DNA from: a virus
Strand: one strand, 5' to 3'
Length of the DNA: 64,000 nucleotides
IMG/VR virus record: IMGVR_UViG_3300035698_012128
Coordinates: 30,672 to 94,671 of that record
Shown: one piece after another, positions 14,294-14,635 of the stretch
Layout of the letters: every line of letters begins with the position of its first letter
Numbering within the stretch: the first letter of the stretch is position 1
Program-made: the position numbers and the translations under genes
The notes under the pieces: model-generated
What the model was told of the DNA's origin: nothing
The model's database searches: none
Seen by the model: only the letters and a program-made list of their open reading frames with translations

Positions 14294-14635
14294 ATGAAAA
14301 AAGGATAAAGTAATGAATTCATAACAATAATAACTAGGAAAGATCTTCAACCTGGATATAAAGTTGTTCAAAGTGCACACTCAATAGCAAATTTTGCAGT
14401 TGAATACCGAGAGCAATTTGATATTTGGCAATCAGAATCAAATTATTTATGTTGTTTAGAATTGGAGGAATTTAAATTTGATAGTTTATTTAGTAAATTA
14501 GACGAGTTAAAGATTAAATACAGTAAATTTAGAGAACCTGATGTAGGTAATCAAGTCACAGCAATAACTGTGGCTCCAATATCACGAGATTTACATAAAC
14601 AAATTTTTAAAAAATACAAATTAACACTATCATGA
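14294..14635 (+). CDS. peptidyl-tRNA hydrolase (Pth2-like), interrupted by in-frame TAA at 14306-14308; absent from ORF track
   Basis: MKKG*SNEFITIITRKDLQPGYKVVQSAH...FREPDVGNQVTAI; TGA overlaps the next ATG. Confidence 0.8.

What the first reader, a model, noticed from the sequence alone, without database searches (positions are those of the whole stretch)
14294..14635. Hidden Pth2-like gene with intact motifs but no clean start
Seen: RKDL..G...VQSAH and FREPD.GN..TA are intact over 108 codons after the TAA, and the final TGA overlaps the next ATG, arguing against a decayed pseudogene. The only in-frame ATG lies before the stop, in an A-rich initiation context. A second mini-ORF (ATG AAT TCA TAA, 14313) sits in the +1 frame. 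Alternatives to readthrough: initiation at ATA 14321, reinitiation, or frameshifting.
Basis: partly seen in the sequence, partly recalled or inferred. Interest (0 to 1): 0.7.

Follow-up and report, generated by a model that had tools for sequence, protein, structure and literature searches.

The report
Ochre-gated phage Pth2 gene with suppressor tRNA
A phage that uses the normal genetic code keeps a UAA stop as the fifth codon of a small peptidyl-tRNA-hydrolase-like gene, 36 bases behind its own UAA-reading tRNA, so the enzyme is probably made only when that tRNA overrides the stop; this gives such puzzling "orphan" phage suppressor tRNAs a concrete target.

Summary
In detail: ATG-AAA-AAA-GGA-TAA, then 108 open codons with a Pth2 fold. 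The stop TGA overlaps the next gene's ATG.

The finding omitted a well-formed tRNA with anticodon UUA (ochre suppressor) at 14184-14258, 35 nt upstream of the ATG on the same strand.

I compared 139 distinct related loci.
- 128 have the same layout: ATG, 0-12 sense codons, an in-frame stop, then the domain.
- The stop is TAG in 121, TAA in 6 and TGA in 1.
- Where a suppressor tRNA lies nearby, stop and anticodon match: TAG/CUA 88, TAG/UUA 1, TAA/UUA 2, TAA/CUA 0. A third TAA genome carries UUA as its only suppressor.
- Each TAA locus has TAG loci as its nearest relatives, so the switch recurred.

The window's genome and three relatives use the standard code: TAA ends 41 of 59 long ORFs here.

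Best reading, about 0.75: a suppressor-tRNA-gated gene. Sequencing error, pseudogene, frameshift and the +1 mini-ORF are rejected. A non-AUG start is unlikely.

Read-through, the inserted amino acid and the enzyme's substrate are untested.

The scan has noted this module, amber and ochre, in about 90 other genomes. I found no paper describing it. Phage pT24, which is cultured, carries the amber form.

The parts
14184..14258 (+). tRNA with anticodon UUA (ochre suppressor); cloverleaf intact, with G7.A66 and C31.C39 mismatches
   Evidence: ARAGORN calls tRNA-Stop (tta). Rfam tRNA scores 55.9 bits, E=6.7e-11, in the range of its neighbours, and places the anticodon loop as UUUUAAC. It is 76-80% identical to CUA suppressors of related loci and at most 71% identical to the 24 other tRNAs of the window.
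14259..14293 (+). 35-nt spacer between the tRNA 3' end and the leader ATG; A/T-rich, no G in the last 20 nt, no Shine-Dalgarno
   Evidence: Sequence. No significant RNA structure: z=0.55. No promoter-like site inside it. The same kind of A-rich, SD-free context precedes 74 of 77 genes of this phage.
14294..14305 (+). Leader: ATG AAA AAA GGA (Met-Lys-Lys-Gly)
   Evidence: It is homologous to the MKKG/MKK leaders of relatives. AAA is the commonest second codon in this genome.
14306..14308 (+). Gate: in-frame TAA followed by A
   Evidence: It is the only convincing in-frame TAA inside a gene of the 94.7-kb contig. The equivalent position is a stop in 128 of 139 relatives, followed by a purine in 126 of 128.
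14309..14635 (+). Pth2-like domain (108 codons) plus the stop TGA at 14633-14635
   Evidence: All 22 invariant and 19 nearly invariant family columns are kept in the window's copy.
14632..14898 (+). ORF88: conserved partner gene of unknown function, overlapping the Pth2 stop by ATGA, which suggests translational coupling
   Evidence: tblastn finds a homologue next to the Pth2-like gene in 24 distinct loci, usually starting at or within about 30 nt of its stop. The model has pLDDT 93.3 and three helices. No family or fold match was found.
14071..14098 (+). Promoter-like site (10 of 12 matches) ahead of tRNA-Ala, tRNA(UUA), Pth2 and ORF88; weak evidence only
   Evidence: The number of such sites equals the chance expectation, and the host is probably not a sigma-70/SD-type organism.
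15289..15315 (+). The only terminator-like hairpin downstream of the cluster; weak evidence only

Best explanation
This is a stop-codon-gated gene paired with its own suppressor tRNA.

The tRNA(UUA) gene and the Pth2-like gene lie 35 nt apart on one strand and are probably co-transcribed. Ribosomes start at ATG 14294, which has the normal context for this phage, and reach UAA at codon 5.

- Without a charged UAA-reading tRNA, a release factor ends translation after Met-Lys-Lys-Gly. No enzyme is made, and probably no ORF88 either, because its ATG overlaps the Pth2 stop.
- With the phage tRNA(UUA) made, processed and charged, the UAA is decoded and the full protein of about 113 residues is produced.

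Output of the Pth2-like enzyme and its coupled partner therefore tracks suppressor activity.

What is shown:
- the anatomy of the locus;
- the Pth2 fold;
- standard-code usage by the genome;
- conservation of the gate in 128 loci;
- matching of stop codon and anticodon.

What is inferred:
- read-through itself;
- co-transcription;
- the amino acid inserted;
- the purpose of the arrangement.

My preferred purpose, about 40% of the probability given gating: the hydrolase is supplied in proportion to read-through, to recycle the peptidyl-tRNAs that pile up when a suppressor drives ribosomes past normal stops in a genome where two thirds of genes end in TAA. The alternatives are a delay timer or negative feedback on the suppressor.

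The likely origin is an amber module. C34 to U34 in the anticodon still reads UAG by wobble, which then allows TAG to become TAA in the leader. L074, with a TAG leader and a UUA tRNA, is the predicted intermediate.
For: 1. A cognate tRNA sits next door. Anticodon UUA, 55.9 bits to Rfam tRNA, same strand, 35 nt upstream.

2. The gate is conserved. 128 of 139 distinct loci have ATG, 0-12 sense codons and an in-frame stop. 91 have a suppressor tRNA within 1.5-2.5 kb, always on the same strand and often 16-60 nt before the ATG.

3. Stop and anticodon match. TAG/CUA 88, TAG/UUA 1 (compatible through wobble), TAA/UUA 2, TAA/CUA 0. The third TAA genome that could be checked (G006, 675 kb) has UUA as its only suppressor. 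Fisher p is about 3e-5, without phylogenetic correction. Each TAA locus has TAG loci as nearest protein relatives, so there were at least 6 independent switches.

4. The window's tRNA(UUA) is an orthologue of the CUA suppressors of its own clade: 76-80% identity, with anticodon loop TT-TTA-AC against TT-CTA-AA.

5. There is no genome-wide recoding. TAA ends 41 of 59 long ORFs in G000, and the Pth2 leader is the only convincing in-frame TAA. G001, G004 and G005 likewise use TAG as a real stop.

6. There is no canonical start for 51 codons after the TAA, and ATG 14294 has the genome's typical start context.

7. The domain is intact and has the Pth2 fold.
Against: - Nothing is experimental. Expression, charging and decoding by the tRNA are not shown.
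- An efficient ochre suppressor should be costly here. 66 of 98 ORFs of at least 100 aa end in TAA, and the next in-frame stop is again TAA in 40 of those 66.
- The window's TAA-A context is no different from that of real TAA stops in the genome, where A follows 23 of 66.
- 32 TAG-gated and 4 TAA-gated loci show no suppressor within the flank I could read. Most are short contigs or have distant tRNAs.
- Four close relatives have an ATG at the first codon of the domain, so there the protein could also be made without read-through.
- The tRNA has two mismatched pairs (G7.A66 and C31.C39).
- The covariation statistics are not corrected for shared ancestry.
Confidence: 0.75

Rival explanations
1. 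The five-codon leader is a separate upstream mini-ORF. The Pth2-like protein is started independently, by a non-AUG start or by re-initiation just after the stop. The mini-ORF would act as a regulatory minigene, for example one sensing peptidyl-tRNA drop-off, like the lambda bar minigenes that are toxic when Pth activity is low (this comparison is from my own knowledge).
For: The codon after the stop is usually ATT, ATA, GTT or GTA, which are near-cognate to start codons. Four close relatives carry an ATG at the first domain codon. Very short ORFs are known sources of peptidyl-tRNA, the substrate of Pth.
Against: - This does not explain why the stop codon type follows the anticodon of the neighbouring tRNA, nor why a suppressor tRNA is there at all.
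- In the window the codon after the stop is AGT, and the next codons (AAT GAA TTC ATA) include no accepted start.
- The residues between the stop and the domain are conserved as protein ([IV]-x-x-G-[DN]-[FK]).
- This phage shows no Shine-Dalgarno use that could direct an internal start.
Confidence: 0.12
2. The phage uses a recoded genetic code, as code-15 phages do with TAG. On this view the in-frame stop is an ordinary sense codon, one of many, and is not a gate specific to this gene.
For: Phage suppressor tRNAs are best known from recoded phages: Borges et al., bioRxiv 10.1101/2021.08.26.457843, and Peters et al., PMC9523058 (listed). Lak phages, reported as recoded, also carry a homologue. 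Gene callers translated the stop as Gln in database entries: P0027 has MKQIKSGDK where L061 has MK*IKSGDK at 90% identity.
Against: - TAA ends 57 of 85 plus-strand ORFs in the window and 41 of 59 long ORFs in G000.
- Searches for in-frame TAA with coding sequence on both sides, or in leaders, return only the Pth2 gene.
- G001 (180 kb), G004 (104 kb) and G005 likewise show TAG as a terminal stop and no other clear internal TAG.
Confidence: 0.05
3. It is a recently inactivated pseudogene, or an assembly or sequencing error at 14306.
For: A single base change (for example CAA or AAA to TAA) would create the stop. The contig is a metagenome assembly.
Against: - The same early stop is present in 128 independent loci.
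- All invariant family residues are retained.
- The downstream coupling to ORF88 is retained.
- A cognate tRNA is adjacent.
Confidence: 0.03
4. Programmed frameshifting links the +1 mini-ORF (ATG 14313) or the leader to the Pth2 frame.
For: An ATG in the +1 frame lies 7 nt after the TAA, and its TAA overlaps the ATA-ACA codons of the Pth2 frame.
Against: - I see no slippery heptamer and there is no stimulatory structure.
- The out-of-frame ATG occurs in only 1 of 22 close relatives. There, as here, it is a by-product of AAT GAA TTC.
- The leader ATG is already in frame, so no shift is needed.
Confidence: 0.02

Closest known systems
Stop-codon recoding in phages with phage-encoded suppressor tRNAs (TAG read as Gln, 'code 15'; crAss-like and Lak phages; bioRxiv 10.1101/2021.08.26.457843, PMC9523058)
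   Same: A phage-encoded tRNA with a stop-reading anticodon is proposed to let ribosomes pass in-frame stops in phage genes. The stop is thought to delay or condition expression.
   Different: The genome here is not recoded. TAA remains the main terminator, and one gene carries the stop, at its fifth codon, next to the tRNA. The codon is TAA. As far as I know, TAA has not been reported as reassigned in phages.
Orphan suppressor tRNAs of standard-code large phages (XacN1 with two CUA, PMC5852040; phage G with Sup-UUA, PMC12484599)
   Same: These are standard-code phages carrying an intact suppressor tRNA. The XacN1 authors state that they could not identify target genes.
   Different: Here a specific, conserved target is identified. 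In XacN1 and RAS14 the Pth2-like domain found by tblastn is the C-terminal part of a longer ORF, with no early stop and no tRNA within 1.5 kb. The gate is therefore not universal.
prfB (RF2) autoregulation through an early in-frame UGA (from my own knowledge)
   Same: An early in-frame stop in a translation-factor gene makes its synthesis depend on how efficiently that stop is terminated.
   Different: prfB escapes by a +1 frameshift and senses its own product. Here escape would be by a dedicated suppressor tRNA, and any feedback from the Pth2-like enzyme is hypothetical.
Archaeal/eukaryotic peptidyl-tRNA hydrolase Pth2 (PF01981; 1wn2, 2zv3, 1xty, 3erj, human Bit1 1q7s); PTH2 noted in jumbo phages by Iyer et al. 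2021 (PMC7824862)
   Same: The fold is the same (TM 0.74-0.81). The Lys of G-x-K and the Asp of the D-x-G motif are conserved and align with the GKK and DAG motifs of a solved hydrolase.
   Different: Sequence identity is only 15-22%, and the Pfam score falls just under the cut-off. The family has its own invariant SNYLCCLE and IKY-x-x-F-x-EPD motifs. Activity and substrate are untested. Iyer et al. do not mention the gate or the suppressor.
Laboratory ochre suppressors of E. coli (supG/supL, tRNA-Lys UUU to UUA; from my own knowledge)
   Same: A class I tRNA with anticodon UUA and A73. U34 lets it read both UAA and UAG.
   Different: This one is natural and phage-encoded. It is related to phage CUA suppressors, not to the phage's own tRNA-Lys (66% identity). 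Which amino acid it carries is unknown.

Membership tests
Pth2 peptidyl-tRNA hydrolase (PF01981) | Sequence match to the family model above its curated cut-off | tested here: inconclusive
   The window protein scores 21.8 bits against a cut-off of 23, E=2.3e-4. 11 of the 33 homologues found carry a precomputed PF01981 hit. A family profile hits the PDB peptidyl-tRNA hydrolase 24bt_A at E=1.5e-4.
Pth2 peptidyl-tRNA hydrolase (PF01981) | Pth2 alpha/beta fold | tested here: met
   The model has pLDDT 94.5. Its top 10 Foldseek PDB hits are all Pth2 or Bit1 structures, with probability 1.00 and TM 0.74-0.81 by query length.
Pth2 peptidyl-tRNA hydrolase (PF01981) | Catalytic residues (Lys and Asp, as reported for S. 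solfataricus Pth2; their identity is recalled from memory and was not verified in a paper here) | tested here: inconclusive
   The Lys of PGYK and the Asp of EPD are nearly invariant and invariant in the family. They align with GKK and KDAG of 24bt_A. I could not retrieve the mutagenesis paper.
Pth2 peptidyl-tRNA hydrolase (PF01981) | Hydrolysis of peptidyl-tRNA | not testable with these tools
   This needs an enzyme assay or complementation of a pth(ts) strain.
Nonsense (ochre) suppressor tRNA | Complete cloverleaf with anticodon UUA in a 7-nt loop | tested here: met
   ARAGORN. The Rfam alignment scores 55.9 bits and places the loop as UUUUAAC. Two non-canonical pairs are noted.
Nonsense (ochre) suppressor tRNA | Expressed, aminoacylated and able to decode UAA on the ribosome | not testable with these tools
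   There are no expression or charging data. The amino-acid identity could not be inferred: the nearest non-suppressor tRNAs in the window are Phe and Ile at 71% and Lys at 66%.
Stop-codon-recoded phage (alternative genetic code) | The stop codon is used as a sense codon in many genes and avoided as a terminator | tested here: not met
   TAA terminates 41 of 59 long ORFs, and the Pth2 leader is the only convincing in-frame TAA.
Suppressor-gated Pth2 module (the class found repeatedly by this scan; not a published family) | ATG, a short leader and an in-frame stop directly before a Pth2-like domain, with a cognate suppressor tRNA on the same strand | tested here: met
   For the window. For relatives.
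prfB-like autoregulatory recoding | The gene product controls the efficiency of its own recoding event | not testable with these tools
   No data exist on whether the Pth2-like enzyme acts on the suppressor tRNA or on termination.

The most novel reading that the evidence does not exclude
The tRNA(UUA), the gated Pth2-like enzyme and the coupled ORF88 form a self-contained read-through homeostat. The enzyme, perhaps directed by ORF88, would act on the suppressor tRNA's own peptidyl or aminoacyl form, or on the stalled products of read-through. The phage could then hold stop-codon read-through of host and phage mRNAs at a set level. This would be a tRNA-based analogue of RF2 autoregulation and the real reason standard-code phages keep suppressor tRNAs.
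Probability: 0.2. Interest if true: 0.9.

Novelty: new variant of a known kind. Interest (0 to 1): 0.75.

Why it matters
Large phages that use the standard code often carry suppressor tRNAs with no known target. The XacN1 authors say so explicitly (PMC5852040). This locus supplies a target: one small translation-related gene locked by the very stop codon that the adjacent tRNA reads.

The ochre version here is the rare form, 6 of 128 gated loci. It serves as a natural compensatory-change test, because where the leader stop is TAA instead of TAG, the tRNA anticodon is UUA instead of CUA.

If read-through is confirmed, this would be a natural single-gene nonsense-suppression switch and a documented natural use of UAA decoding in a phage. 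It would also offer a compact, portable tRNA-plus-leader part for synthetic biology, and a route to finding out what phage Pth2 enzymes do.

Tried and rejected
- **Nearby phage records.** A megablast of 3 kb around the locus against GenBank phages found nothing.
I could not fetch the DNA of the database proteins that show Gln at the stop position. Indirectly, P0027 (MKQIKSGDK) is 90% identical to L061, which has TAG there. The Gln is therefore probably a code-15 gene call and not a real CAG codon.
- **Genome-wide TAA recoding** is rejected. My first flank-scoring scan was noisy because antisense frames also score as coding. A best-of-six-frames filter fixed that.
- **A special termination context** for the gate is not supported within this genome. 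TAA-A is as common at real stops. Across loci, though, the base after the stop is a purine in 126 of 128.
- **RNA structure at the leader:** none (z=0.55).
- **Promoter and terminator scans** were at chance level.
- **The +1 mini-ORF** is incidental.
- **Amino-acid identity of the tRNA** is undetermined.
- **ORF88 function:** no Pfam, PHROG, Atlas or PDB match.
- **Records behind L066, L076, L077, L081 and L110** (TGA and TAA leaders without a tRNA in the flank) are not held. Their tRNAs could not be checked.
- **Pth2 active-site paper** (PMC2253226) is not held.
- **XacN1 and RAS14.** Their Pth2-like domain lies inside a longer ORF without a gate. They are not examples of the module.

Full report
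**The observation**

The frame that opens at ATG 14294 reads Met-Lys-Lys-Gly, then TAA (14306-14308), then 108 sense codons to TGA at 14633-14635. The terminal TGA overlaps ATG 14632 of an 88-codon ORF as ATGA. The next canonical start after the TAA is a TTG 51 codons downstream, which would remove half of the domain.

The protein belongs to the Pth2 fold.
- Pfam PF01981 scores 21.8 bits, just under the 23-bit cut-off.
- A profile of 30 relatives hits a solved peptidyl-tRNA hydrolase at E=1.5e-4.
- The AlphaFold model has pLDDT 94.5. Its ten best Foldseek matches are all Pth2 structures, with TM 0.74-0.81 by query length.

**What the finding left out**

ARAGORN finds 25 tRNA genes in the window. 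One, at 14184-14258, has anticodon UUA. It lies on the same strand and ends 35 nt before ATG 14294. Rfam's tRNA model scores it at 55.9 bits, within the range of its neighbours (43-68 bits), and places the anticodon loop as UUUUAAC. It has two non-canonical pairs, G7.A66 and C31.C39.

**Where the window comes from**

The window is part of a 94.7-kb IMG/VR viral contig, estimated 58% complete, with 30.5% G+C. It encodes a DNA polymerase, a GroEL-like chaperonin, glycosyltransferases and a PurZ-like enzyme.

Its genes lack Shine-Dalgarno sequences: only 3 of 77 have one. Their upstream regions are A-rich and G-poor, and AAA is the commonest second codon. ATG 14294 fits this pattern exactly. It suggests a Bacteroidota-type host, though that is an inference.

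**Is the genome recoded? No.**

TAA ends 57 of 85 plus-strand ORFs in the window and 41 of 59 long ORFs of the contig. I searched for in-frame TAA with coding sequence on both sides, and for short ATG leaders ending in TAA ahead of a long open frame. Only the Pth2 gene came back as a convincing case.

**Relatives**

A first scan of viral contigs gave one close relative, a complete 180-kb phage with 68% protein identity. Its gene begins ATG AAG TAG, and the tRNA 22 nt upstream of that ATG has anticodon CUA.

Profile-based scans of viral and metagenome contigs brought the total to 139 distinct loci.
- 128 have ATG, 0-12 sense codons and an in-frame stop directly before the domain.
- The stop is TAG in 121, TAA in 6 and TGA in 1.
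- A purine follows the stop in 126 of 128.
- A suppressor tRNA lies within the 1.5-2.5 kb flank in 91. It is always on the same strand and often 16-60 nt upstream of the ATG.

Three relatives that I examined over most or all of their length (180 kb, 104 kb and a 36.6-kb fragment) also use the standard code. TAG acts as a real terminator in them, and there is no other clear internal TAG.

**Covariation of stop and anticodon**

| Leader stop | tRNA anticodon | Loci |
|---|---|---|
| TAG | CUA | 88 |
| TAG | UUA | 1 |
| TAA | UUA | 2 |
| TAA | CUA | 0 |

The two TAA/UUA cases are the window and L087. The TAG/UUA case is compatible, because U34 reads both A and G by wobble.

A third TAA locus lies in a 675-kb record, and that record's only suppressor tRNA is UUA, 19 kb away. 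Fisher's exact test gives about 3e-5, not corrected for phylogeny.

Every TAA locus has TAG loci as its nearest protein relatives, so the change arose at least six times.

The window's tRNA(UUA) is 76-80% identical to CUA suppressors of its own clade and at most 71% identical to any other tRNA of the window. Its anticodon loop is TT-TTA-AC against TT-CTA-AA. It is therefore an orthologue with a changed anticodon.

The simplest path is C34 to U in the tRNA, which keeps UAG reading, followed by TAG to TAA in the leader. L074 (TAG leader, UUA tRNA) looks like the intermediate. This path is an inference.

**Mechanism**

I read the locus as a gene whose translation is gated by its own suppressor tRNA. 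Without a charged tRNA(UUA), ribosomes terminate after four residues. With it, the full enzyme is made, and probably the translationally coupled ORF88 too.

ORF88 is a conserved partner. It sits next to the Pth2-like gene in 24 distinct loci. Its model has three helices at pLDDT 93.3. No family or fold match was found.

Nothing about expression, charging, the inserted residue or enzyme activity has been tested.

Why a hydrolase should be tied to a suppressor is open. I favour supply in proportion to read-through stress. A timer or a feedback loop are the alternatives.

**Rivals**

- **Non-AUG start or re-initiation after a regulatory mini-ORF (0.12).** This would not predict stop/anticodon matching. 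The window has no plausible start after the stop.
- **Genome-wide recoding (0.05).** It fails the direct tests above.
- **Pseudogene or sequencing error (0.03).** It is excluded by recurrence in 128 loci and by intact invariant residues.
- **Frameshifting (0.02).** It is not needed and is not supported. The +1 mini-ORF is a by-product of the Asn-Glu-Phe codons and occurs in only 1 of 22 close relatives. There is no structure at the leader.

**Comparison with what is known**

- PTH2 genes in jumbo phages have been noted, with no mention of a gate or a suppressor (PMC7824862).
- Suppressor tRNAs in standard-code phages are recorded as orphans. XacN1's authors could not find targets (PMC5852040), and phage G has a Sup-UUA (PMC12484599).
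- Stop-codon recoding with phage suppressor tRNAs is known for TAG and TGA in recoded phages.
- Full-text searches combining suppressor tRNA with peptidyl-tRNA hydrolase or PTH2 in phages found no description of this pairing.
- A cultured phage carries the amber form. Tenacibaculum phage pT24 has ATG AAA TAG before the domain and a tRNA-CUA 2.6 kb upstream. Its annotated CDS starts at an internal ATG.

**Earlier notes of this scan**

I consulted these only after I had found the tRNA and the covariation myself (before). They report the same module, amber and ochre, in roughly 90 other genomes. They agree with my reading, but they are not independent evidence.

**Verdict**

This is an ochre variant of a widespread and apparently unpublished suppressor-gated Pth2 module. 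Confidence in gating is about 0.75, and interest is 0.75.

Noticed in passing
window 14632-14898: An 88-aa ORF overlaps the Pth2 stop (ATGA) and is a conserved neighbour of the Pth2-like gene in 24 distinct loci. It is usually immediately downstream and sometimes upstream. The model is confident (pLDDT 93.3) and shows a three-helix protein with a long helical hairpin. No family or fold match was found.
   Followed up: partly
window 14211-14227; suppressor tRNAs of L060, L063, L087 and others: The last pair of the anticodon stem (31-39) is mismatched in 14 of 62 distinct suppressor tRNAs, against 6 of 77 other tRNAs from the same loci. Both UUA suppressors next to a TAA leader share the loop TTTTAAC and this mismatch. 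Four-base-pair anticodon stems have been linked to stop-codon decoding in eukaryotic tRNA-Trp (abstract of PMC13092985).
   Followed up: partly
window 15229-15241: A hairpin, TTTGGT-CTCTAAA-ACCAAA, has a seven-base loop CTCTAAA. That loop is the commonest anticodon loop among the CUA suppressors of related loci. The hairpin differs by one base from the anticodon arm of this phage's tRNA-Trp at 132-144. No D or T arm is present, and the surrounding 171 nt do not fold better than shuffles (z=-0.05). It could be a relic of an ancestral CUA suppressor or a mimic.
   Followed up: partly
L135 (Tenacibaculum phage pT24, LC168164.1, about 194,100-195,036) and L136:1501-1575: The cultured phage pT24 has an amber-gated Pth2-like domain (ATG AAA TAG ATA) fused to a longer C-terminal part. 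The GenBank CDS BPT24_235 starts at an internal ATG. A tRNA with anticodon CUA lies 2.6 kb upstream.
   Followed up: partly
L074 (Ga0138256_10004857): The leader is ATG TAG, with the stop as codon 2, and a UUA-anticodon tRNA lies 664 nt after the start of the domain. This is the combination expected for an intermediate between the amber and ochre forms.
   Followed up: no
L066 (Ga0129324_10003216): This is the only locus with a TGA leader (MKQYEHRRS-TGA-V...). No tRNA was found within 1.5 kb, and the record is not held, so a UCA tRNA could not be sought.
   Followed up: no
whole contig G000: Genes lack Shine-Dalgarno motifs (3 of 77, below the 18% background). Their upstream regions are A-rich and G-poor, and AAA is the commonest second codon. 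The pattern suggests a Bacteroidota-type host.
   Followed up: partly
window 31201-32358: This ORF matches phrog_1211, annotated '2-aminooxy adenylosuccinate synthetase' and so PurZ-like, at E=4e-48. Together with the preQ0-pathway genes noted by other first-stage notes, it hints at modified DNA bases.
   Followed up: no
G000:C1 about 5946 and 3650, minus strand (outside the window): Two stops, a TGA and a TAG, have high coding scores on both sides in the same frame. They could be adjacent genes, interrupted genes or recoding sites.
   Followed up: no
proteins P0001-P0027: Many database entries of this family show Gln exactly where the DNA of their nearest relatives has TAG. This is probably because the gene caller applied code 15. 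Such entries hide the gate and should not be read as evidence for a sense codon.
   Followed up: partly
window 14994-15083: A tRNA-Met (CAT) has an unusually long variable region (90 nt overall) and a lower Rfam score of 43.5 bits.
   Followed up: no
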